This document shows, one piece after another, positions 10,568 to 25,932 of a DNA stretch of 64,000 bases. Origin of the DNA: Felis catus (lineage: Eukaryota); NCBI RefSeq assembly GCF_018350175.1, contig NC_058382.1, positions 8,370,001 through 8,434,000 on the forward strand, given 5' to 3'. The notes under the pieces are model-generated. The model was not told the DNA's origin, did not search any database, and worked only from the letters and a program-made list of their open reading frames with translations. A program made the translations under genes and the position numbers. The stretch's first letter is position 1. The number at the start of each line of letters is the position of its first letter.

Positions 10568-12218
10568 TCAGTCGCCCATGGGCAGCCACAGGGCCTTGGT
10601 CCGTGCTGCCCGCAGCCCCAGCTCTGGGCCTGCTCCCTGGGCTTCCTGATCCCAGGCCCGAGGGCGGCCCCTGTTCACCCACACCGGCTTCAGGTTTCCT
10701 GCTGAGGCCCACTCCACAAACTGGGAGCCCTGACACAGAAAAGGGGGATCAGCCCTTCCGCCAGCTTGGTTGCCAAGCAGCTGCTTCCTTGGCAACCAGG
10801 ACTATTACTGCGGAGGGGCCCCAAGGCTTGACCTAGGCTCTGGTGCTACAATGCTCAGCTTGTAGCAGGCAAACCTTCCAGATGTGGAGGGAGACAACGT
10901 TGACCTTTGCGGCCGGGGAATTTCCTCCCCATTAACAGCCCACATTCAAAGGAATGAGGCCTGAGGTTCTTATGACAAGGAGTTCCCCTCCGTCACCTTC
11001 AGGCTTGAGGGTGGACTGTGGGCTTCTGAGTCTGTTACAGGGTGTGGTCCCTTAGCAACGGGTTGTCCAATGAGATTGGGTCTTTGGGCCGGGCAGGATC
11101 TCAGGCCCTTGTTGCTATACTAAGGAGATCCTCTCCCTTAGCAACAGGGACTCTGGAGGGCGGGATCTCAGGACCCGGTTGCCAAGGAATTTCTCCTCCT
11201 TAGCAACGGGAATTCTAAGGGGGCACTGCCAGGTTTCCAGAAAAGGAGGAGACCGTTGGTGAGGTTTAGGACGCTGGAGAGATGGCAAAACAAAGGGTAC
11301 CTGGGCAGATCCGAAATACCACAGGGCCTGGACGTCCTGGTGCAAGGCCAGGCAGCGGGTCAGGTGGTCCCGGTCTCCAGTCACCACATTCACCAGGCCC
11401 GCTGGCAACAAGGTGGCCATATCCTAGGGGATGGGGGAGGGGGTCGGGAGGGAAGGGAGTCAGAGACGCCGAAGGCAATAGGTTGGGTGAGGAGCGAGCT
11501 TCCGGGGAGGGCTCACGGGGTCCTGGCCAGAATGGTCACGGGCTCCATGAGCAGTGCAAGCTTGGATGGAGGGCGGGGGCCATGGGGACTGGGGTTGCCG
11601 TGGTTACAAGGGGGTGGGGCTAGTGCAGGCCTTGGGACACCGTCCATCCCTCTGCTGCCCCAGGGGCCGCTGGGAGCAGCGGCAGGAAGGCGGGCAACCG
11701 TACCTGGCAGACCTCCAACGCGGGGATGGGGCAGACCCCGCTGGGCACCAAGACCACGGCGTTGCCATGGGCCAGGGCGGCGGCCAGCAGGGACGCAAAG
11801 GCAAGCAGGGGCCACTCATCAGGGCACACGATAGCCAGCACGCCCAGCGGCTCCCGCAGCCGGAGCACAGGGCCTCTCAGCTCTGCCACCTGCAGGGACA
11901 GGCAGGAAGGAGGTCAAGGGCTGGGTTGAAGAGCCTCATCGACCGCCCCCTTCCTCCTCTACCTATCTTTGCTTCTCTGTAACAACTCCAACAATAATTA
12001 ACCAGGTGACGGTTCAGAGCAGACTCGGGCCAGGCAGCTGGGTTGAAGTCCCAGCTCTGCCACTTACCAGCTGTGTGACCTTGGGTGAGTTACTTAACCT
12101 CTCTGGGCCTCAGTTTCCCACCTTTCAAATGAGGCTCATAGTGCTTACCTCGTAGATTTGTTTCCAAAATGAAACAAGTTAATGTGTGTAGAGGGCTCGG
12201 AATCTGGCCCATGTTTTG

Positions 12219-12262
<44 letters not shown>

Positions 12263-15200
12263 ATTAAAAAAAACCCACAAAATTTTATTGAATATAATTG
12301 AAATTCACTAATCTGCATGCATTTTAAACGGTACAATTTGATAATTTTTTTTCTTTTTTTTAAGTAAGCTCTACGCCCAACATGGGCTTGAACTCATGAC
12401 CCTGAGATCAAGAGTTGCATGCTCTAACGACTGAGCTAGCCAGGTGCCCCAATTTGATACATTTTGAGATCTATATGTCCTCCTAAAACCGACACTATAA
12501 TCAAGGCAATGAACTTCACCCTTCAAATCTCCTTGTGCCCCTTTGTGATCCTTCCCTCCTGCCTCCATTTGTTTTTTTTTTTAATTTTTAATTTTTTTTA
12601 ACGTTTTATTTATTTTTGAGACAGAGAGAGACAGAGCATGAACGGGGGAGGGGCAGAGAGAGAGGGAGACACAGACTCGGAAGCAGGCTCCAGGCTCTGA
12701 GCCATCAGCCCAGAGCCCGACGCGGGGCTTGAACTCACAGACCGCGAGATCGTGACCTGAGCTGAAATCTGACGCTCAACCGACTGAGCCACCCAGGCGC
12801 TCCCCTCCTGCCTCCATTTGAACCCTCTTTGTCCTCAACCACTTCCTCTCACCATAGTTTGTATTTTTTTTAAGCTGATTTATTTATTTTGAGAGATTGA
12901 GAGAGTGCAAGTGGGGGAAGGGCAGAGAGAGAGGGAGAGAATCCCAAGCAGGCTCCATGCTGCCAGTGTAGAGCCTGACATGGGGCTTGAACTCATGAAA
13001 CTGCGAGATTATGACCTGAGCCGAAACTAAGAGTCAGATGCTTAACTGACTGAGCCACCCAGGCACCCCTATAATTTGTACTTTCTAGAATTTTCTAGAT
13101 TTGCAATTATAGAGTCTGTACTATTTATTTTATTTTTTTTAATCTGGCTTCTTTCACTTAGTGTAGTAATTCTGAGATTCATCCACCATGTAGCATGTTC
13201 ACTCCTGAATGCTGAGTAGGATTCCTTGTAGGGACCTACCACAGTTTATTTATTAACCAATCCAGGGACATTAGGATTGCTATTTTTACGTATTTAACTA
13301 ATTATTTAAATAAAAAAAATTAATGTTTTTATTTATTTTTGAAGGAGAGAGAGACAGAGCGTGAGTGGGGGAGGAGCAGAGAGAGAGGGAGTCACAGAAT
13401 CCAAAGCAGCCTCCAGGCCCCGAGCCGTCAGCACACAGCCCGACGTGGAGCTCAAACTCACAGACCGTGAGATCATGACCTGAGATGATCTGAGAGTTGG
13501 ACGCCTAACCGACTGAGCCACCCACGTGCCCCAATTATCTCTCATTTCTATCCCTGAGTGCTCTGGTGCCATTGCCTGACTCACTGAATCCTCACGCTTT
13601 CTTTCTTTTTTTATTAAAAAAATTTTTTTAAATGTTTTATTTATTTTTGGGAGAGAGAGCACGAGCGAGCGAGAGTGGGGGAAGGACAGAGAGAGGGGAA
13701 CAGAAGATCCCAAGTGGGCTTTGCACCGACAGCAGCAAGTCTGATGCAGGGCTCGAACTCACCAACTGTGAGATCTTGACCTGAGCCGCTGTCGGATGCT
13801 CAACCAACAAAGCCACCCAGGCACCCCTCCTCAACCTTTCTTCCCGGACTCACTGTATGTTTCATATCAACCCTGTATTTGGTTGCCTGTCATGTATATA
13901 AACAAAACCAAAGTCACACGAAGCAACACTCTGTGTAAGACATTCTATATTTCCTGTTCTATTCTGTTTAAAAAAAAAAAAAAAAAAAAGCTGAGTGGCT
14001 CAGTCAGTTGAGCGTCTGACTCTTGATTTCAGTTCAGGTCATGATCCCAGGGATGGGGGATCGAGCCCTGTGTCGGGCTCCATGCTAAGCGTGANNNNNN
14101 NNNNNNNNNNNNNNNNNNNNNNNNNNNNNNNNNNNNNNNNNNNNNNNNNNNNNNNNNNNNNNNNNNNNNNNNNNNNNNNNNNNNNNNNNNNNNNNNNNNN
14201 NNNNNNNNNNNNNNNNNNNNNNNNNNNNNNNNNNNNNNNNNNNNNNNNNNNNNNNTGGGCGGCTCAGGCGGTTAAGCGTCCTACTTTGGCTCAGCTCACG
14301 GTCTTGCAGTTTGTGGGTTCGAGCCCCGCATCCGACTCTGTGCTGTCAGCGCAGAGCCAGCTTTGGATCCTCTGTCTCCCTCCCCCCCTCTCTCTCTCTC
14401 TCCGCCCCTACCTTGCTCGTGCGCACTCCCTCTCTCTCAAAAACAAATAAACATTAAAACAAAAAAAAGAGTAGGAAAAAAATCATACTGCAACCACTAA
14501 ACTGATTTTACGGTCCAGAAATGGGTTACTAACGACAATCTGAGGTGCTACACTGTGATGCAGACCATATGCCCATTACACAGATGAGGAACTCGAGGTG
14601 CGGAGAGGGGAGGCCACTTGCTGGTGATCGTGTGCAGCTGGGATGCTGTGTGGCTGGGCTCACTCCAAAGTCCTTGCTCTAACCTCTACTGCAGACCGCC
14701 CCCCCCGTCTGCTGGTCCCCAGAATCCTCTTACCTGCAAGAGGTGGCCTTGGGCCTGGGCGCGGGCCCCCCACGCCCGCAGCCGCCTCGCGCTAAGCTCC
14801 ACCTCCACCTTGGCGGTCTTGAGCTCCACTCCGTGCCTCTCCAGCGCCGAGGTGAAGGCAGACTCCCGGCGCTCCAGTGCAGATGCCAGGGCCCACAGCA
14901 GGGACGCCCGGGCTCCTGGTGGCTGGCTCACCCAGCTGGGGGAGGGCAGTGCACGTTACGGGGCGGCTTCCTGCTCCTGGTTCTTTCCAGGTGCCCCAGC
15001 TCTGTCCACAGCCCCTACTGCGGGGCTCCAGACCCCACGGCCCATCTGCATGGGGAGGGGTGTGACCCATATCCTGTCAGCTTTGGGAGCTCAGCCCTCA
15101 GGACCCAGACCCCAGATCCCACAGCCCTTGGAGGGGGGGGGTCTCAGGCTACCCTCTGAAATGCCCACGACGTCTGGGTTTTCCCACGGGGTTCCCCTTA

Positions 15201-18200
15201 CCCAGGGGCAGCCTGGTGAGCGGCCTCCACGGCACCTCGGATATCCTTGGCTCCGCCCTCAGCCACGTAGGCCTGGAGATTGCCTTTCGAATCCTGGATG
15301 CATCTGGAGCTCCGGGCCCCAGGAGCTTGGAAACGGCCCCCGATGAAGAGCCCATAGGGGGCCGCTGGGCTGGAGCAGGGTGAGGTGTGGGGGTGGGGCC
15401 TGGGGCCAGGTCTACTCGGACCCCAGGCCCCACCCACTGAGCCTCTGGGAGGGCACTCCTTCATTTAGCAGAACTGAGACTCCCTTCAGGCAGGGGTGAG
15501 GGGGGTGGGTGTGAAGCCACAGAGAATGCAATTCTGGGCAGGACTCGGGGACCCCCCTCAAGATGGCTCTAATGAACCCCTCCTCCAGTCCCTGGGCAGC
15601 CTGCTACAACTTCCCTTCTCGCCGCCTGCCGTACCCCCAGAGATTCTGGAGTTGCAGCTCACCTGGGTCCTATTTCAGGCCCAGATGGTAGGGTCAGGGG
15701 GACAGCAAGGCCAAAGGTGTCATAGTTCAGATTCTCAGAAAGGGAAGGCAGCCGGGCAGGGGTCCCGGAGGGCCGCAGATACTCATACAGACCCTGTGAG
15801 AGGGGCAGAGTGTCAAAAGGACGCAAGGTGGGCACTGGGTGGTTGAAGGGGGTGCTGATGGGGGGCAGGAGGAGGGAACTCACGTCTGGGCCCCCGTGCC
15901 AGGAAGACCCACTCTCCTTGCAGCCACCCGTGGGCACTTCGGGGTGTCTAAGGCCGTGGGCGTTGATCCAGACCGTGCCCACCCGGAGCCTGTGCGGGGA
16001 GAGGAGGCCATCAGCAAGAACGGAAGGTTGCAGGGGGTAAGTGGTCGGAGGGGCAGGGTGGAGAGAGACCCAGAGACCCACAGAGAGTGGAATGGAGACC
16101 TCAAGACCGAGAGAAAGAGCAGAAGCTTGAGCCTCCCCCTCCCCCCGCCCAACAGACTGCCTTTGCGCCCCAGCAGGCGCCGACTGACCCATAGCCCAGC
16201 TCCAAGGCCTGCCCTAGTCTCTCGCTCCACACACTGGCACTGCCTCCTCGGGGCGTCCCGTTGGCCACGGCCAGTGCCTCCTTAGCTGTGCGGAATGGGG
16301 AGGCCACGACCACAGGCCAGGGCACCTGGAAGGGGTGACGACAGAGTTCAGGTGGCCCGGCCAGCTTCCCCCCTCCCCAACACCCCACCCATTCAGCAGC
16401 CCCCAGACCCGGACCAAATGGTCACTCCGGGGGCCTCTGCAGGTGTAGTGTTGCTGCCCATGTGTGGCTGCAGACGGGTGGATGGAAAAGGATTTCCGGG
16501 GCCCTGAAGGGCTCACCTCTGCCTGGGTACATGGGGAGGCTGGGGGCAGGTCAGACACCAAAGTTGGGGGGAAGAATGGGCTGACTGAGGGAACATCGCC
16601 AGCCTGGAACACCTGAGGGGAAAGGAANNNNNNNNNNNNNNNNNNNNNNNNNNNNNNNNNNNNNNNNNNNNNNNNNNNNNNNNNNNNNNNNNNNNNNNNN
16701 NNNNNNNNNNNNNNNNNNNNNNNNNNNNNNNNNNNNNNNNNNNNNNNNNNNNNNNNNNNNNNNNNNNNNNNNNNNNNNNNNNNNNNNNNNNNNNNNNNNN
16801 NNNNNNNNNNNNNNNNNNNNNNNNNNNNNNNNNNNNNNNNNNNNNNNNNNNNNNNNNNNNNNNNNNNNNNNNNNNNNNNNNNNNNNNNNNNNNNNNNNNN
16901 NNNNNNNNNNNNNNNNNNNNNNNNNNNNNNNNNNNNNNNNNNNNNNNNNNNNNNNNNNNNNNNNNNNNNNNNNNNNNNNNNNNNNNNNNNNNNNNNNNNN
17001 NNNNNNNNNNNNNNCTAGCCCCTCTTCCCTCAGACCCAGAGTCTTGGTCCCCACCCCCTCCTCCCTCAGATTCAGTCTCGGCCCCCAGCCCCTCCTCCCT
17101 CAGACCCAGGAGTTGGGTTTCCAGGTCCCTCCTCCCCTGGCGCCGGGGGTCTGTACGCCTTGCTCACCTGTGCGCCCTGACTCTGGGCCTCGCGCACGTA
17201 GCGCTGGGCCAGGTCATGTGCGGCAGCCCCTCGAGCCCCCATGTCCACAGCGCCGTCCAACCCTCGACCGCCCCGAAGCCGTGCCATGCGCTCCTGAAGC
17301 CGCCTCATCGTCTCGTCCCATACGGACTCCTGGATGAGGAGCCGGAGTCCCCCCTGTGAGGAAAAGGGATGTCAGGGCAGGCAAGGTCGGGGCTCATGTT
17401 GAGGGGACGGGCCCCCACAGAGGGTGGAGACTTGGGGATGTACATACACAGATCAGAGGAGGGTCAAGGGGGGGTGGCTGGGGACCCTAGAGACTCACTG
17501 AGGCCCCAAACCCGGGCAGGAAGTGAAGTTACAGAAGTTGGTGATTCAGAGTGAAGACAGAGATTGGAAAAGTAGGGACACGGATACTTAGAAAAGTGAA
17601 GACAATCTTAAAGAACAAGAGATGCGAGCCCTCTGCAAAAACTGGAGAGCCGGGATGTGGAAAGGCAGAAATCCGACGTGCGGGAGCCCCACACGCGCCA
17701 TGGTGCGGAGACAGAATCTGAGGCACAAGGAACTGAAAATTATAATCAGTGGAGACATGAGGCCCTGAGGTCTGGAGAGGGACACGCACGATCCCCAGGA
17801 CTTGGGGGCACACGAGTGCACGGGCCTCACCGCGCTGCGGTCGGACCAGGCTGCATCCACGACGCCCTCCACGGCCGAGTCCACGTCCGCTGCCTCCGTC
17901 AGCACCAGCAGGGACTCGGCCCCCAGTGCCAGGCCCAGCTCAGCACCCTGACCCGCCAGGGTCCGCCGAAGGACACGTCCTTCCTGCAGGGCCCCCGCGG
18001 GATTCAGCCGAGGGGCCTTTGGGCCTCCCCGCCACGTCCCGTCCCCCTCCCGACCCCGAAGATACCTCGACGGCTCCACAGAAGGTCACCTTCTGGACTC
18101 CAGGCTGGGAGGCCAGGATGGGGCCCAGGGAGGCAGGGCCGTTGATCACGTTGAGGATTCCTGGGAAGGAGCCTAGCTCCCCTGCCAGCTGGGCCAGGAG

Positions 18201-21200
18201 GAGGGGTGTTGGAGAGCCTGGGGGCACCAGCACCACCACAGTGCACCCTGGGAAAGGTGGGCAGCGCAAAGATCNNNNNNNNNNNNNNNNNNNNNNNNNN
18301 NNNNNNNNNNNNNNNNNNNNNNNNNNNNNNNNNNNNNNNNNNNNNNNNNNNNNNNNNNNNNNNNNNNNNNNNNNNNNNNNNNNNNNNNNNNNNNNNNNNN
18401 NNNNNNNNNNNNNNNNNNNNNNNNNNNNNNNNNNNNNNNNNCCTCTTCCCTCAGACCCATGAGTCCCAGCCCCCTCCTCCCTCAAACCCAGGAGTCCGGA
18501 CCCCCAGCCCCCTACTCCATCAGACCCAGGGGTCAAGGCCCCCACAAGCATCTTCCCTTAGACCCTTGAGTCCCAGCCCCCTCCTCCATCAGACCCAGGG
18601 GTCAAGGCTCCCCAGCCCCCTCCTCCATCAGACCCAGGCGTCAAAGCACCCAGATCCCTCCTCCCTCTGACCCAGGGGATAAGGTCCCCACACCCCTCTT
18701 CCNNNNNNNNNNNNNNNNNNNNNNNNNNNNNNNNNNNNNNNNNNNNNNNNNNNNNNNNNNNNNNNNNNNNNNNNNNNNNNNNNNNNNNNNNNNNNNNNNN
18801 NNNNNNNNNNNNNNNNNNNNNNNNNNNNNNNNNNNNNNNNNNNNNNNNTCTCAGACCCGGCCCATCAATTACCCACAGCCAAGGCAGGGCAAATCCTCCA
18901 CATCATCTCAAGGAAGGAGAACGTGGGTGACAAGATGAGACCAATCACTCCTGTAAAAGTGAATGAGACAATCGGGGCAGGCACTGCTGGTTCACGAGGG
19001 AGGAAGGGGCTGGGGACCAGGACTCCTGTGTCTCACCCATGGGCTCCCAGCCTGCCAGCGTCTCCTCCTGGGTGTATGCCTGGACTGCATGCCATTGGAG
19101 TAGCTGCTGGGCCAGTGGGATATCCCTGTCTCGAACCTCTCGAACGGCTCTCCCGGTCACCAGGGACTCCAGGGTCCAAAGTAGCCGCTGGTGCTTCTGG
19201 ATCATCTTGGCCAGCCTGTAGAGAAAGCCAGGGGGAGAGTCATTTCCCATTGCCTCTCAGTCAGAGTCCTGGAACACCCCCTACATACCTGGACTACAGT
19301 CCCCGTGATCGCCTCCACCATTTACCAGAGGCGAAGAGCACCAAAGATTTATGGGAAATGTAGTCCGAGAAACACAAAACCCAAGGGCGCCTTTTGCAGA
19401 TCTCGGCCGCCCGCAACCCCCAAAGGTGCTGAGAAATTGGAAATTCAACCTTTAATCTCAATTGCATTTTAGAAAATGGAATGTTGGTCTCTAATTGCTC
19501 CAAGAGTATGATGGAAAACGGGTGGTGCTGAGGCTCCAGCAGCCCCAGTGAACTGCCAGGAAATTGGGGCCTCGATGAGGCCTGAGGCTATTCTGGGAAA
19601 CAGAGCTTCGTCACTACTAGTCCTGGTGGATGGATGCTTTAGCTGCTACAGGCTCAAAGCATGCTGGGAATGTGAGCCTTAGCTACGCAATCAATTCCGC
19701 GAGACATCAAGACATCGGGAAATAGAGTCTTTGTTCCCAGAGTCTCAAGTGGTTGCTTGAGGCGCTGGCAGGCTGGGAGCCCATGGGTGAGACGCAGGAG
19801 TCCTGGTCCCCAGCCCCTTCCTCCCTCGTGAACCAGCAGTGCCTGCCCCGACTGTCTCATTCACTTTTACAGGAGTGACTGGTCTCATCTCGTCCCCCAC
19901 CTCCCAAGGTCCACACCTCGACCGCATCACCTGGTCAGGTACTGGGCCCGAGAGGCTCCAGGGAGTCCGCTCCAGTTCTCCCACGCAGTCCTTGCTGCCT
20001 CCACGGCTGCCGCCACATCTTCAGCCTGTGCCTGGGGGCAACTGGCCAAGTTCTCTCCTGGGGAGATGAAAGGAGGGACCCCCAGGCAGTAGAGCTGCTC
20101 CCCAGCCCCACTCTATTATAAGTATTTTGGTTGTAGGGGCGCCTGGGTGGCTCAGCCAGTTGAGCCTCCGACTTCAGCTCAGGTCACGATCTCACGGTTT
20201 GTGGGTCGGAGCCCTGCATCGGGCTCGCCGCTGTCCGTGCAGAGCCCGATTCAGATCCTCTGTCCCCCTCTCCCTCTGCCCCTCCCCCGCTCGCACGCTC
20301 GCTCGCTCTCTCGACAATAAATAAAACGCTAAAAATACATAAATATATTAATCAAGGAAGGGATCTTGGTAGACACTGACTTCAAAAAGCATCCACAGGC
20401 ACTTGGAGCTATTATTTGGATGACTTTAACAGGAAGAGCCAGAAATCGTGGGCTTCTCCCCCCACTGGCTACTTCCTGCCTTCAGGGCCCTGAGCAAAGA
20501 GAATGGGGTGTTGTTGGTGGATACGGCTGGGGATATGGAGGCCTGCCTCTCCCTCCCCGAACAACCGGGGGACACTTCATACCTGTGATAGGATCCCGGC
20601 AAGGTACTGAATTCCTGTGTTCCGGCTTTAGCCACTTTCCATTTACATAGTGACCCAAGTGCCGGTCTTGGGTGTCCAGCCAGGCCTGGGGGAGGCAAAG
20701 ACAGTTTAGGACAACGTCTGAGAGGCAGCTAGGGGAGTTCAGTCCCTACCTAGGGTCCTCTGGGAGGGGGACACTTGCACCCCTTTGCCCCACCTGCCAA
20801 TTCTTTGCCGGTGTGGCAGGAAAATGCACACAAACATAAGATACATGTAACAAATGGAGCGCCTGGGTGGGCTCAGTCGGTTGAGTGTCCGGCTTCGACC
20901 CGAGTCACCATCTCACGGTTCGTGACTTTGAGCCGCGCATCGTGCTCTGTGCTGATGCGAGAAGCCTGCTTTGGGTTCTGTCTCCCCCACCCCCACCTCT
21001 CAAAAATAGATAAACATTAAAAAAAACAACAACAACAACACGGAACATAAAACCCACCATGTTAACCATTTCAAGGCGTACAATTCAGCGGCACGTGGTA
21101 CGTTCACAATGTCGTGCAACCATCACGACCTAGTTTCAGAACATTCTCGTCCTCCCAAAACGAAACTCGGCACCCATCAGGCAGTCACTCTCTCTTCCTC

Positions 21201-24200
21201 ATGCCCCTAGCCCCTAACTGCTACTCTGCTTCCTGTTTCTGCGGATTTGCCTTCTCTGGATATTCCACGTGACTCGGGACCCCACAACACGTGGCCTCTT
21301 TGGCTGGCTTCTTTCACCCAAGATGGTGGTTTGCTTTTTACATTTCTTTTTCACTGTTTACTTATTTTTGAGATGAGAGAGAGAGAGAGAGAGAGAGAAA
21401 GCGCAGGCTGGGGAGGGGCAGAGAGAGAGAGAAAGCCCGAGGATCTGAAGCAAGCTCTGAGCTGTCAGCACAGAGCCCAATGCAGGGCTCGAACTGATAA
21501 ACTCTGAGATCATGACCTGAGCCGAAGTTGGACGCTTCACCGACTGAGCCACCCAGGCGCCCCCAACATGGCGTTTCTGGAGCTCATCCAAGTTGTAGCA
21601 CGTATCAATCGTTCCTTTTTGTGCTGTAGGACATTCCATTGTCTGGAGAGGCTACGTTTTGTCTCTGTTCATTACCACTTGACACATTCCGTTTGTTTCA
21701 GCCTTCTGGTTACTGTGCACAGTGCCGCTGAGGCAGCTTCCCGTACCTGATTTTGTCTGAACACCCGCCTTCACTTCTTTTAGGCAAATGTACCCAGGAG
21801 CGGAATGGCTGGGTCATACGGCAACTCTCTGGGTAACCTCTTGACGGACCACCAAACTGTTTGTCACGGTGGTTGTGCCATTTTACGTTCTCACCAGCCA
21901 CACGTGAGGGCTGTCCTACTGACTTTGACATGCGGCTTCATAAAACCCATTCTCCTGGGGCGACTGGGTGGCTCAGTCGGCTGAGCGTCTAATTTCAGCT
22001 CGGGTCGTGATCTTGAGTCCCTGGGTTTGAGCCCCACGTCGGGCTCCGTGCTGACAGCTCAGAGCCTGGAGCCTGCTTTGGCTTCTGTGTCCCTCTCTCT
22101 CTCCCTGTCTCTCTCTCAAAAATAAATAAACATTAAAAAGCAAAGCAAAGCAAAACAAAACGAAGCGAAACAAAACAAAAGAATCTGTTCTCCTCCATGC
22201 AGAAGTGACCTTAGGTGAACTTTTCTAATACTCAGGGAACCTGAGACAATTCAGCTGTATTACCAGACAACAATGACCCCTGAATGGTCCACTGCACCTG
22301 AACGGGACAACTGGGGACACACCCTAAATATCCAATGGGAAGCCAGGGCACTGAGGCTGTCTGGAGTTGTCTGCATTCTTTTTTTTTTTTTTTATGTTTA
22401 TGTATTTTTTTTTAATTTTTTTAACGTTTATTTATTTATGAGACAGAGAGAGACAGAGCATGAACAGGGGAGGGGCAGAGAGAGAGGGAGACACAGAATC
22501 TGAAACAGGCTCCAGGCTCTGAGCTGTCAGCACAGAGCCCGACGCGGGGCTCGAACTCATGGACCGTGAGATCATGACCTGAGCCGAAGTCGGACGCTTA
22601 ACCGACCAAGCCACCCAGGCGCCCCTATGTTTATGTATTTTTGAGAGACAGAGAGAGCATGAGCAGGGGAGGGGCAGACAGAGAGGGGGACAGAGGATCT
22701 GAACTCTGAAGTGGGCTCTGTGCTGACAGCAGTGAGCCTGAGGGTGGGGCTCGAACTCACGAACCGGGAGATCGTGACCTGAACTGAAGTTGGACGCTCA
22801 ACCCACTGAGCCCCCCAGGTGCCCAGAGTCCTCTGCATTCCTGTGATGGGGCATATACCTTGGGGCGTACAAGACTCTGGAAGCAACGCCCATGACACTG
22901 TATTAGGCACCATCGGGTTCTTTTTGGAAGGTGGGGTTTCTAAGCCGGGTAGTCCCTGCACCCAACCGTGTGATGGCATTCCCTGCCCCCTCGGCGGCCG
23001 CCACTTAGAGGAGCAGTGTGGACCCCCAGTGAAGACACAGGCCCCACAGGTGCAGCTTCTTGGGCTGAGCCCCAGGCGCGGCACGTAGGCATTGCCAAGG
23101 GGGCAGCAGTGTGTGGATTCGAAACCCCGTTCTGGGACTGAGCGGTGCAACCTTAGCCAGGGTATTATCACACTCTGGTCCCCGCAAGGTCATCTGAAAG
23201 ATGGGGATAATCCCAGCCCCTCCCTACTTCACAGGGTTGTGGCGAGGATGAAATGGATCAATGCACGTGACACGCTGAGAGCAGCACTGCGTAAGACTTG
23301 CTCTTAATCTCTCCCTCCCCGTCTGCTTCAGATTTCTCTCCCTGCTCCTGTCCCCCCCAAAATCCTCGCTAAATCCGAGTCACGCTTCCCATTTTTTCCT
23401 TCCACAGATGTTCTCTCTCTTCTCTTAGCATCCCAAATGCCCCATTCTCCTAATCTTTCTCTTACCCTGCCAACTGGCTCTTCGTATGGGGCTGGCACAC
23501 GAACGGTGAGATCATGACCTGAGCCGAAATCAAGAGTCAGACGCTTAACAGACTGAGCCCCCCCAGGCACCCTGACATTGGATGATATTAAAGAATGGCC
23601 CCTAGGGGCACGGCTGGCTGGCTCACTCAGTAGAATGTGTGACTCCTGGTCTCAGGGTTGTGAGTTCCAGCCCCACGTTGAGCGTGGAGCCTACTTAAAA
23701 ATATTCAAAAAATTAAAGACTTGGCTGCTAGTGTGAAGTGTGAAAAATGGCCAGGTGGGTTATGTTATCAAGTGAGTTCTTATCAGTTAGAAAAGACGAT
23801 TCAAATATTTATGGGAAGATAACATGACATCTGGGATTTAAATCATTCCAGAAAAAAGAGAAAACCAAAGACTACAACTCTGGCCCAAATGTTGACGATT
23901 CCTGAAGCTGAAGTAAATAGCGATTCATAGTATCAAGTTCTCTGTGGAAGTTTGCAAATCCCCCCCTCCCAAAGAAAAACAAAACCCTAAAAGAATGTCT
24001 ACGGGGTCCTGGCAGGTCACGCTAGTGTGAGAAGAGGGCCTGGTGGAGACTGGGAACTCACAACTTGCCTAAAAAAGACAGTCACTATTGGATCCAGATG
24101 ATTTTTGTCAGGGAATGTGAGCCAAACATTGCCAAATTTTGGGATTTTATTTTCAAAAGAAGCTGGAATCCTGGGATGTTTCCATGGAATTAGTTGACCA

Positions 24201-25932
24201 CGAATTCACATTTTCAAAAATAAAGTTCGGGCCAAAGAAAACAATTTGTTGGATGAATCGGGCCCACATGTTGTAAGGTCGAGACCTTTGCTTGGGAGGC
24301 TGTGGGGGAACCGCGAATCCGAGGGTTCAGGTTCAAATCTCAGCTTTACCTATTTTAAACCGTGTTGGCCGTGGGCAAATTACTTACCCCCTGAAGCCTC
24401 CGTGTGCTATCACTAAAAGGACGACAACCATCCCCTCCCACAGCTGTTCTGGGGATTAAAGGAGATCACACTGAGCACAGAGGCTGGCACATAGAAAGCA
24501 CCCAGTAAATATAAGCTATTTCTACATTATTGCTATTTCAGTATATTCCATCTCAAGCCCACCTTCAAGTGTGGGAATTCTGTGTGCTCTGTCCCAGATC
24601 ATCACTCCCACCGTCCAATGGTCTTACGGTGGTGACTCCCAGGTCCCTGTCTCCAGTCCTGAAAGGCTCAAGCCCAAGTAACATCAGACTCCTGCACATA
24701 ACTCAAGGCTGTCCCCGGGTCCCTCACACTTTCACCATGCGATAATCACGCTCAGGGTCTTTCCTTGCAACTCTAGTCCTCCTGGGTTCCTCCCTGGTGG
24801 TGGTGGTGGAGGGATGGAGACACAGCTGGACCCCAGGCATTGCCCTTGCCCTCTCAACTCCTCAGACGGTTCCCCTGCCTCATCCCCTCCTATCCACCTT
24901 ATCCATTTTCACAGCGGGCTCCTGGCTCTGACCTCATCTTCTTCCACTTGGACCACGGTTCTAGACTCCTCTTCTCTCCTTGAAGAGAAGCCCAAGCTTC
25001 TCATTCCTGGGTGCTAGAAGACCCTGTGCGATCACGAGAGCCCCAATGAGGGAATTCTGAGGGGGCTAGGTAATTACAGGATATTCCAGCCACCCTACTT
25101 CTCCCTAAGAACCACAAGAGGTTCTGGGGGGACCCTGAGGGATCACAGAAGTCTCATGAGGCTTTGAAGAGGCCCTGAAGAATCACGGGAGCCCCATGGG
25201 GGGTATTCTGAGATGGGTGAGGGGGTCATGGGAGCCCCATGGGGATATTCTGGGGGGTGTAGGTTAATTACAGTTTAGTTCTGATGTATTCTGGAGTTCT
25301 GAGTTCACAAGATCCTAGGAGACCCTCAAGTATTGGTGGGGGCCTTGAGGAATCCCGGGACTCCATGGGAAGGCGCGGGGGGAGGGGGGGAGACTCAGGA
25401 TCATGGGAGCTACAGGATGTTCTGGGGAAGTCTATGGGGCTTCTGAGGGTCCTTGGAAGATCAAGGGAGCCCCACAGGAATTTCGAGTCCCGGGGGATCC
25501 CGGGAAGTTCTGAGGGGGCTGGAAGAATCACGGGAGCCTCCGGGGAATCCGAGGCCTCGAAGGACTCGGGGAAACGCCATCCCAAGTAGGTACCAGGGAG
25601 CAGGAGAGCTACCACCAAACAACGGAAGAGGATCCAGGGTTAAGACGAAGCAACCGCAAAGGCTTAAGGGAATGCCCTTCTAGGGTGGGTCCCAAGGGGT
25701 GGCGAGAATCACGGGAACCGAGAAGGGCGGAGCTGCTGAGCTGCCGCGGTGGATCACGGGAGTCCGCGCGCTAAACTGGACCTGGATGCCTGGTTGGGGG
25801 AGAGGGGGCGGGAATGGGCAGCGCTGAACGGCAGGCCCTCACCAATGCGCATGCGTGGCTCTCAGGCACAGGTCCGTACTCCAGCGTGGTGAAGATCTCT
25901 CGGGTGCTGCGCTGTGCGTGCGTCGCAGCCAT
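10568..25932 (-). CDS. ALDH16A1: Aldehyde dehydrogenase 16 family member A1, complete 17-exon CDS, 802 aa
   Basis: Exons 25932-25843, 20685-20583, 20057-19931, 19215-19037, 18950-18873, 18247-18066, 17983-17831, 17353-17168, 16612-16517, 16325-16189, 15989-15884, 15793-15663, 15369-15202, 14935-14734, 11889-11704, 11423-11301 and 10729-10568 sum to 2409 nt. The protein starts [30 protein letters not shown] and ends [11 protein letters not shown]. Confidence 0.97.
12015..12200 (+). mobile_element. MIR SINE
   Basis: MIR core: cccagctctgccacttaccagctgtgtgaccttggg...ttacttaacctctctgggcctcagtttcc. Confidence 0.85.
12572..12802 (-). mobile_element. Young Can-SINE with an 18-bp TSD, inside an old L1 fragment; further SINEs at 12860-13069, 13310-13532, 13600-13827 and 13992-14470
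   Basis: TSD ccctcctgcctccatttg at 12554-12571 and 12803-12820; near-consensus SINEC_Fc body. Confidence 0.92.
18442..18702. repeat. MSR1-like ~37-bp GC-rich minisatellite (CCCCTCCTCCCTCAGACCCAGGAGTCC...); also at 17015-17135, 32540-32590, 44510-44590, 45690-45850 and 48320-48430
   Basis: Tandem units are directly visible, and the arrays abut the N gaps at 16628-17014, 18275-18441 and 18703-18848. Confidence 0.85.
19759..19900 (+). repeat. Inverted duplicate of the ALDH16A1 exon 4 end, intron 4 and exon 5 start (partner 18923-19064)
   Basis: Ungapped 142-bp reverse-complement alignment with 6 mismatches. Confidence 0.95.
20156..22823. mobile_element. Cluster of Can-SINEs (20156-20335 +, 20856-21040 +, 21340-21564 -, 21957-22180 +, 22391-22823 - nested pair) and an L1 fragment (~21045-21930 -) in ALDH16A1 introns 1-2
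   Basis: SINE heads and tails; antisense L1 3' motifs (ggaatggctgggtcata, accaaactgttt...ccattttac). Confidence 0.8.

What the first reader, a model, noticed from the sequence alone, without database searches (positions are those of the whole stretch)
18923..19900. Antisense copy of its own exon4-intron4-exon5 junction inside ALDH16A1 intron 3: a predicted splice-masking RNA hairpin
Seen: 19759-19900 is the reverse complement of 18923-19064 (142 bp, ungapped, 6 mismatches) and begins only 30 nt after the exon 3 donor. It is complementary to the last 28 nt of exon 4, all 86 nt of intron 4 (donor, branch region, acceptor) and the first 28 nt of exon 5. In the pre-mRNA, 3 of the 6 mismatches become G.U wobbles and 2 are A.C mismatches. 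Known: A.C mismatches in long duplexes are preferred ADAR sites. Inference: a ~140-bp stem with a 694-nt loop could sequester both intron-4 splice sites. Intron 4 retention reads into a TGA at 18947-18945, and skipping exons 4+5 removes 257 nt and shifts the frame, so both outcomes predict NMD. This could be a built-in cis-antisense attenuator, an editing substrate or an endo-siRNA source. One A.C site is the first base of the exon-4 ACG (Thr) codon, where editing would give Ala, although it sits at the duplex end.
Basis: partly seen in the sequence, partly recalled or inferred. Interest (0 to 1): 0.78.

Follow-up and report, generated by a model that had tools for sequence, protein, structure and literature searches.

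The report
Old backwards splice-junction copy, cat ALDH16A1
An intron of the cat ALDH16A1 gene holds a real 142-base backwards copy of a nearby small intron with both its splice sites, likely an old DNA-copying accident from the ancestor of cats; it is predicted to fold onto those splice sites in the RNA, but nothing yet shows that it changes splicing.

Summary
Observation confirmed: 19759-19900 is a 136/142 reverse complement of the last 28 nt of exon 4, all of intron 4 and the first 28 nt of exon 5 of an intact ALDH16A1 (802 aa, identical to the Felis catus record). Public runs from six studies hold the copy's words, so an assembly artefact is unlikely. At equilibrium the stem hides both intron-4 splice sites. 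The G.U and A.C pairs are what neutral transitions give and show no selection. New here: the copy keeps the ancestral Ala codon, while 22 of 22 felid proteins have Thr159. So the copy likely predates living cats (11-14 My), and the 'Thr-to-Ala editing site' is an ancestral base left in the copy, in a poor ADAR context. All 22 felid records keep exons 4 and 5 joined. Three other unique-sequence inverted copies lie in 1.2 Mb of the same chromosome, and the scan noted similar exon copies on other DNA. Best reading: a tolerated template-switch scar with at most a minor splicing or editing effect (0.6). A measurable attenuator is open (0.2). No RNA reads were examined, so splicing and editing are untested.

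The parts
19759..19900 (-). Inverted copy in intron 3 (5' arm of the predicted pre-mRNA stem). Read on the + strand it is exon 4 end / intron 4 / exon 5 start with GT and AG intact. Keeps the ancestral Ala codon.
18923..19064 (-). Source segment (3' arm of the predicted stem): last 28 nt of exon 4, intron 4, first 28 nt of exon 5
19065..19758 (-). 694-nt loop: rest of intron 3 with its acceptor, and the first 151 nt of exon 4; 19216-19750 is single-copy in the genome
19931..20057 (-). ALDH16A1 exon 3 (127 nt); its donor lies 30 nt upstream of the copy
19037..19215 (-). ALDH16A1 exon 4 (179 nt); skipping shifts the frame
18951..19036 (-). ALDH16A1 intron 4 (86 nt), wholly inside the predicted stem; retention gives a stop at 18947
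18873..18950 (-). ALDH16A1 exon 5 (78 nt); skipping it alone is in frame
19059..19061 (-). Codon 159 (Thr in 22 of 22 felid records, Ala in 81 of 96 other mammal records); its first base faces C in the copy (A.C mismatch)
10568..25932 (-). ALDH16A1 coding span, 17 exons, 802 aa, intact

Best explanation
The 142-base segment is a backwards copy of the exon 4 / intron 4 / exon 5 junction, likely made once by template switching in an ancestor of living cats and likely tolerated since as a near-neutral scar, with a predicted RNA stem that would trap only a minority of transcripts. Shown: the copy, its 6 differences, the intact gene, the ancestral Ala codon in the copy against Thr in all felid records. 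Inferred origin: a replication or repair polymerase jumped to the opposite strand 0.7-0.8 kb away, copied 142 nt and returned. Inferred working: the copy is transcribed first and waits 694 nt for its partner. In most transcripts protein coating, local folds (about -50 kcal/mol per arm) and early spliceosome commitment (the intron 3 acceptor appears 151 nt before the partner; removing intron 3 removes the copy) would win, and normal mRNA is made. In the rest the stem (-316 kcal/mol) would zip from the exon 4 end, hide the exon 4 donor and the intron 4 acceptor, and give intron retention or exon 4(+5) skipping, degraded by NMD, plus scattered ADAR editing before splicing. The cost would be a modest loss of output, not a selected switch.
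For: Local inverted copies are common: 3 other unique-sequence ones (>=60 nt, >=85%, <=5 kb apart) and 72 repeat-derived pairs in 1.264 Mb of this chromosome. Inverted templated insertions are known germline variants (PMC8421209, sections 9 and 10 part 1 read; PMC5453318, abstract and section 6). The mismatch types match neutral drift. Two of the three G.U pairs arose by changes in the copy that would alter conserved residues (Ile169: no Thr in 115 records; Leu173: no Ser in 115), so the copy is decaying. Six differences give 12-27 My at 2.2-1.0e-9 per site per year (95% range 4.5-59 My), which fits the Ala/Thr date without gene conversion. 22 of 22 felid records from 9 genera keep exons 4 and 5 joined, among them an 802-aa frame on a 4,974-nt Logan contig, which must be a spliced transcript since the gene spans 15.4 kb. 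With pairing limited to 150 or 400 nt the splice sites are as open as without the copy; folding near the polymerase is described as the general view in PMC2724269 (passages).
Against: No RNA reads were examined, so the share of unproductive transcripts is unknown. The duplex is far stronger than any rival fold and reaches -80 kcal/mol once the exon 4 donor is made. Long-range stems do change splicing: PMC2724269 (passages), PMC12519161 (passages), inverted Alu pairs (10.1101/2025.03.07.642063, passages). Protein records cannot show NMD isoforms, only 15 of 29 members of the main felid cluster were listed, isoforms of one species are not independent, and it is not shown that felids other than the two organism labels carry the copy. 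The intronic 86 nt carry only 2 of the 6 differences (P 0.08-0.17), a weak hint of conversion or constraint. The pre-insertion allele was not seen, so the origin is inferred.
Confidence: 0.6

Rival explanations
1. Cis-antisense attenuator: the stem forms in a large share of transcripts, masks both intron 4 splice sites or loops out exons 4-5, and sends them to NMD, so that cats make measurably less ALDH16A1, in a way that depends on elongation rate or ADAR and helicase levels.
For: Both splice sites fully paired at equilibrium. The stem shortens the exon 3 donor to exon 6 acceptor path from 1683 to 705 nt. All outcomes but exon 5 skipping carry early stops. Splice-site-sequestering duplexes act as kinetic switches in NISCH, GAK and MEGF8 (PMC12519161, passages). 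Likely kept for 11-14 My or more.
Against: No sign of selection in the differences. All 22 felid protein records have the normal junction, while 3 of 96 non-felid records lack exon 5. The loop is 694 nt. Survival of an intronic insertion needs no function.
Confidence: 0.2
2. Newborn editing-complementary sequence with restorative editing: the copy made a duplex over the exon 4 end, the gene then changed Ala159 to Thr (G to A), and ADAR edits that A, which faces the copy's ancestral C, back to an Ala codon (harm-permitting model).
For: The order of events fits: copy ancestral, gene derived in 22 of 22 felids; meerkat and 81 of 96 other records have Ala. A later back-mutation in the copy has a chance of about 0.015-0.025. 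An upstream-intron ECS exists in NEIL1 (PMC4053975, passages). The harm-permitting model is published (PMC6881472, abstract).
Against: The A has a 5' G neighbour and only 3 pairs on its 5' side (that ADARs disfavour both is recalled). Position 159 varies anyway (Val in 14, Glu in 1 of 96), so no rescue is needed. The transcript-sized felid contig reads Thr. Any gene-side G-to-A change after duplication makes an A.C pair by itself.
Confidence: 0.08
3. The copy works on the other strand: intron 3 holds a THAP11/ZNF143-type element, and an antisense transcript started there would read the copy in sense, with an intact donor and acceptor, as a ready-made intron or as a first-exon donor towards PIH1D1.
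For: An ACTACAnnTCCCA match at 19364 (minus strand), a second ACTACA at 19293 and TTCCCA-type sites at 19670 and 19599; the motif is the THAP11 site of PMC3627581 (passages). The copy's GT and AG are intact.
Against: No CpG island there (CpG o/e 0.37-0.50 against up to 0.88 at the real promoter). No transcript evidence. Intact splice dinucleotides are expected with 6 changes in 142 nt.
Confidence: 0.06
4. Endo-siRNA or innate-immune dsRNA source: the hairpin survives in retained-intron RNA and is diced or sensed.
For: A near-perfect duplex of 142 pairs.
Against: It exists only while intron 3 is retained. ALDH16A1 has 0 occurrences in the 4 supplementary files of the feline miRNAome paper (PMC5569061; a weak test). 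Inverted repeat-derived pairs are far more numerous (30 of 100 nt or more at 90% or more in 1.264 Mb).
Confidence: 0.04
5. Assembly artefact.
For: No reads were laid across the junctions.
Against: Six differences between the arms; 14 runs from 6 studies hold more words than a genome without the copy should; the copy carries a base that no felid coding record has and that outgroups have.
Confidence: 0.02

Closest known systems
Templated inverted insertions: MMBIR-type MMB-TI (PMC8421209; abstract, section 9, section 10 part 1 read) and four-point template switches (PMC5453318; abstract and section 6 read)
   Same: A short inverted copy of nearby unique DNA, sharp ends, present in the germline.
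   Different: Template 694 nt away, whereas MMBSearch calls templates within 100 bp; junction microhomology cannot be resolved without the empty allele; here the template is a whole intron with both splice sites.
Splice-site-sequestering pre-mRNA duplexes: NISCH, GAK, MEGF8, BRSK2 (PMC12519161, passages) and long-range Drosophila stems (PMC2724269, passages)
   Same: An intronic element complementary to a splice site of the same pre-mRNA.
   Different: Those were captured in cells or are conserved, and were tested by oligonucleotide or mutation. This one is a 142-pair duplication product that covers donor, branch region and acceptor at once; nothing is tested.
Inverted Alu/SINE pairs that loop out exons (10.1101/2025.03.07.642063, passages)
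   Same: A long intramolecular duplex around an exon, lineage-specific, possible skipping and editing.
   Different: Not transposon-derived; one arm is the exon-intron-exon junction itself.
Editing-complementary sequences in an upstream intron, NEIL1 K242R (PMC4053975, passages); restorative editing (PMC6881472, abstract)
   Same: Upstream intronic sequence pairs with coding sequence; an edit would restore the ancestral residue.
   Different: No editing shown; the candidate A is in a poor context at the stem end.

Membership tests
Local templated inverted insertion (template switch / MMB-TI) | Insertion is a reverse-complement copy of nearby DNA | tested here: met
   136/142 identical, 694 nt apart, only two full copies found in the genome
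Local templated inverted insertion (template switch / MMB-TI) | Template within 100 bp (MMBSearch working definition) | tested here: not met
   694 nt between the arms; definition. Lowers 'classical MMB-TI', not 'template switch'.
Local templated inverted insertion (template switch / MMB-TI) | Microhomology at the junctions | tested here: inconclusive
   Flanks of copy and source differ at once on both sides; the empty allele is needed
Local templated inverted insertion (template switch / MMB-TI) | Absent from the orthologous site in an outgroup | not testable with these tools
   No related eukaryote genomes are held; one search found no look-alike windows
Retroposed or L1-mediated insertion | Introns removed, poly(A) tail, target-site duplication | tested here: not met
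   The copy keeps intron 4; no A tail or flanking direct repeat seen by eye
Splice-masking RNA structure | Stem predicted to pair the splice signals | tested here: met
   Unpaired probability 0.00 at donor, branch region and acceptor; MFE and centroid agree
Splice-masking RNA structure | Stem forms in cells and changes isoform ratios | not tested
   No reads were laid; 22 of 22 felid protein records show the normal junction, a weak test
Splice-masking RNA structure | Conservation or compensatory changes | tested here: inconclusive
   Within one genome the 6 differences fit neutral transitions; no cross-species DNA
Editing-complementary sequence (ADAR site-selective substrate) | Duplex with the target A, often opposite C | tested here: met
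   A.C at 19061 and 19029
Editing-complementary sequence (ADAR site-selective substrate) | Favourable neighbours and position in the stem | tested here: not met
   19061: 5' G, 4th pair from the end; 19029: 5' C, intronic; 23 of 25 gene-arm and 24 of 30 copy-arm adenosines have a 5' G or C. The preference itself is recalled.
Editing-complementary sequence (ADAR site-selective substrate) | A-to-G seen in RNA and not in DNA | not tested
   No reads were laid

The most novel reading that the evidence does not exclude
A single copying accident in the ancestor of cats gave ALDH16A1 a built-in antisense strand against one whole intron. It throttles the gene through intron retention and NMD in all felids, and as a newborn editing guide it let an Ala-to-Thr mutation fix that ADAR now partly reverts: the dated birth of a splice switch and of a restorative recoding site from one event, with the copy as the fossil of the ancestral codon.
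Probability: 0.08. Interest if true: 0.75.

Novelty: new member of a known kind. Interest (0 to 1): 0.33.

Why it matters
If ordinary, it is still a clean natural test of an old question: can a very strong long-range duplex (142 pairs, 694-nt loop) beat co-transcriptional spliceosome assembly on a constitutive intron of an intact gene? Cat against dog RNA-seq would answer it. It is also a trap for editing calls: at both A.C sites the edited gene base equals the copy's base, so misplaced reads of the copy mimic editing exactly. If the stem acts, it would show how unique-sequence inverted duplications, of the order of 2-3 per Mb in this sample, can create lineage-specific splice switches and editing guides without transposons.

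Tried and rejected
1) The 776-aa felid isoforms (cat X2, jaguarundi X2, Geoffroy's cat X3) have the length of an exon 5 skip, but they use another first exon and keep exon 5: rejected. 2) G.U and A.C pairs as a sign of selection: rejected. 3) Gene conversion or constraint in the stem centre: 4 of 6 differences lie in the exonic 56 nt, P 0.08-0.17, not significant. 4) RNA rows: shares 0.71, 0.62, 0.42, 0.21, 0.12, 0.06; exons alone give 0.24 and exons plus intron 4 give 0.36. Three rows exceed that and so hold intron 3 words, but nascent RNA and DNA carry-over cannot be told apart and none was laid: no evidence either way. 5) Read-level splicing, editing and junction data were not obtained. 6) The copy as a transposon or dispersed repeat: only two short further hits, to a motif inside intron 4; the rest of intron 3 is single-copy. 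7) Literature: no listed paper described this element in searches for ALDH16A1+intron (45 papers, 25 listed), ALDH16A1/A-to-I/editing (15 of 4,939 listed, none naming the gene), Felis catus+RNA editing+ADAR (6 of 7 listed), ALDH16A1/splicing/inverted/feline/Felis (15 of 757 listed, none naming the gene). Listings and abstract starts only; subscription papers and bioRxiv supplements were not visible. 8) Solnick and Lee 1987 is not held and Eperon 1988 was seen only as cited. 9) The sigma-70 scan does not apply to a mammal and was ignored. 10) Earlier scan notes near this place or in look-alike windows: none.

Full report
1. The observation. From the window I built a 17-exon minus-strand gene with one open frame of 802 aa that is identical to the Felis catus ALDH16A1 record. 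The copy lies in intron 3 (715 nt), 30 nt after the exon 3 donor, and mirrors 28 nt of exon 4, the 86-nt intron 4 and 28 nt of exon 5. A genome search found the two arms and two short hits to a motif inside intron 4; 19216-19750 is single-copy. In the pre-mRNA the differences give three G.U, two A.C and one G.A pair.

2. Is it real? No reads were laid, so the test is indirect. Of 1221 31-mers in 18860-20110, 144 are specific to the copy, so a genome without it should hold about 0.88 of the words. Fourteen runs not labelled RNA (10 'DNA?', 4 unlabelled), from six studies and two organism labels, hold 0.94-0.96; the chance that the 125 sampled words held so few copy-specific ones is at most 0.016. 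The rows share one word sample and one may be the assembly's source. Six differences, one of them an outgroup-type base (section 4), also argue against an artefact.

3. How unusual? In 1.264 Mb of the same chromosome (120 stretches plus the window) there were 76 inverted pairs of 60 nt or more, 85% or more alike, within 5 kb: 72 repeat-derived and 4 unique within the sample, this one included. The other three are 98, 245 and 449 nt. That is about 2.5 per Mb, so thousands per genome if the sample is typical (one chromosome; uniqueness judged only inside the sample; I did not check whether the three touch exons). Some will hit splice junctions by chance. Earlier scan notes list several such copies in this genome and exon copies in other genomes (unchecked leads, not support). 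What sets this one apart is that it covers a whole intron with both splice sites.

4. Which arm changed, and when. An exon 4 peptide search gave 212 relatives, 120 listed; cluster look-ups added 22 more, with 15 of 29 members of the main felid cluster listed. Among records over 500 aa, residue 159 is Thr in 22 of 22 felid records (21 named, from 9 genera including Panthera and Neofelis; 1 unnamed) and Ala in 81, Val in 14 and Glu in 1 of 96 others, meerkat being Ala. Five records were dropped because the pattern did not match: four read Ala by eye, one lacks exon 4. Records include several isoforms per species. The copy has the Ala-type base. The simplest reading is that the copy was made before Ala159Thr fixed, hence before living cats split (about 11 Ma; Felis-Neofelis 14.08 Ma; PMC7612286, passages); a later back-mutation has a chance of about 0.015-0.025. 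At codons 169 and 173 the gene keeps the conserved residue and the copy's version (Thr, Ser) occurs in 0 of 115 records, so the copy changed there. The other three differences cannot be polarised. Six differences over about 222 free sites give 12, 17 or 27 My at 2.2, 1.6 or 1.0e-9 per site per year (95% range 4.5-59 My). The first rate is quoted in, and the second derived from, 10.1101/2024.04.06.587788 (passages); the third and the site count are my assumptions. The two dates agree, so neither conversion nor constraint is needed. Presence of the copy in other felid genera is a prediction, not a result.

5. The mismatch types. A transition in either arm gives G.U or A.C with equal odds. With 67-75% transitions, P(3 or more G.U of 6) is 0.32-0.40, and the three control copies show 14 G.U, 13 A.C and 18 transversions. 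The pattern carries no sign of selection. The exon 4 A.C pair exists because the gene moved away from the base that the copy kept. Editing it would restore the ancestral Ala, which is the harm-permitting scenario of PMC6881472 (abstract), and an upstream-intron editing partner is known from NEIL1 (PMC4053975, passages). But this A has a 5' G and three pairs on its 5' side, both poor for ADAR by recalled rules, and the position tolerates other residues. Only 2 of 25 gene-arm and 6 of 30 copy-arm adenosines have a 5' U or A. The acceptor A (18952) is in the stem; editing of acceptor AGs can alter splicing (PMC5991522, passages). A caution for any test: at both A.C sites the edited base equals the copy's base, so misplaced reads look like editing.

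6. Folding. The arms pair at -315.7 kcal/mol against -51 and -50 for each arm alone; MFE and centroid agree. At equilibrium the exon 4 donor, the branch region and the intron 4 acceptor are fully paired (0.00 unpaired), against 0.67, 0.30 and 0.40 without the copy. With pairing limited to 150 nt the values are 0.67, 0.30 and 0.40, and to 400 nt 0.58, 0.28 and 0.42. So all turns on whether a 694-nt loop closes before the spliceosome commits. For closing: the hybrid reaches -62 kcal/mol after 28 nt and -80 after 37 nt of the partner, and long-range or splice-site-sequestering stems do alter splicing (PMC2724269; PMC12519161; 10.1101/2025.03.07.642063; passages of each). Against: the copy is already about two-thirds paired locally before its partner exists, the intron 3 acceptor appears 151 nt before the partner, and PMC2724269 reports the general view that folding occurs mainly within about 60 nt of the polymerase.

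7. Outcomes if it closes. Retention of intron 4 (stop at 18947), of intron 3 (19929), skipping of exon 4 (18910) or of exons 4+5 (17942) all leave 10-13 junctions more than 50 nt downstream and predict NMD (the rule is recalled). Skipping exon 5 alone is in frame, but needs the masked exon 4 donor. The closed stem shortens the exon 3 donor to exon 6 acceptor path from 1683 to 705 nt. What the records show: all 22 felid proteins keep exons 4 and 5 joined, while 3 of 96 non-felid records lack exon 5. One felid-type 802-aa frame lies on a 4,974-nt Logan contig, so it comes from a spliced transcript, and it reads Thr159; whether that animal has the copy is not shown. Normal mRNA is therefore likely the main product, but protein records cannot show NMD isoforms.

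8. Verdict. Best explanation (0.6): an old local template-switch copy, tolerated, with a minor leak into unproductive splicing and scattered editing. Rivals: measurable attenuator (0.2), restorative editing guide (0.08), splice cassette of an antisense transcript from a THAP11/ZNF143-like element in intron 3 (0.06; motif in PMC3627581, passages), small-RNA source (0.04), artefact (0.02). It works, if at all, like known splice-site-masking stems. By origin it resembles templated inverted insertions (PMC8421209; PMC5453318), though its template is farther away than the 100 bp of the MMBSearch definition. No listed paper described it (listings only). New member of a known kind; interest 0.33, for the whole-intron coverage, the internal date and the cheap decisive test.

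Noticed in passing
window 19290-19370 and 19599, 19670 (ALDH16A1 intron 3): An ACTACAnnTCCCA (THAP11/ZNF143 SBS2-type) match, a second inverted ACTACA and two TTCCCA-type sites inside the loop; the same motif occurs at the ALDH16A1/PIH1D1 promoter (26108) and in a PIH1D1 intron (27143). Possible internal promoter or enhancer; exon 4 has an in-frame Met110, and 2 non-felid records start there.
   Followed up: partly
window 18996-19031 and 17035-17112, 18444-18702: Intron 4 holds one unit of the roughly 37-nt GC-rich minisatellite that fills introns 5 and 8 (MSR1-like; name recalled), so the copy could also pair weakly (81% over 36 nt) with intron 5 units.
   Followed up: no
window 20136-20312 with 21387-21563 and 22515-22627: Inverted SINE pairs flank exon 2 (74-80% complementary), ordinary editing or loop-out candidates in the same pre-mRNA.
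   Followed up: no
window 19092-19094 region, codon 148 of exon 4: Trp148 appears only in the domestic-cat records; other felids have Cys and most other mammals Tyr.
   Followed up: no
ALDH16A1 intron 1 (20686-25842): Cat, jaguarundi and Geoffroy's cat records of 776 aa use another first exon joined to exon 2; exon 7 (in frame) is missing in 24 of 123 mammalian records.
   Followed up: no
G000:C39:13049316-13050245, 13130281-13131808, 30097105-30101671: Three other unique-sequence local inverted copies (98, 245 and 449 nt; 88-96% alike) found in the background scan; gene context not checked.
   Followed up: partly
window 19744-19761: A 6-pair mini-hairpin straddles the loop-side junction of the copy, possibly a relic of the return switch.
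   Followed up: no
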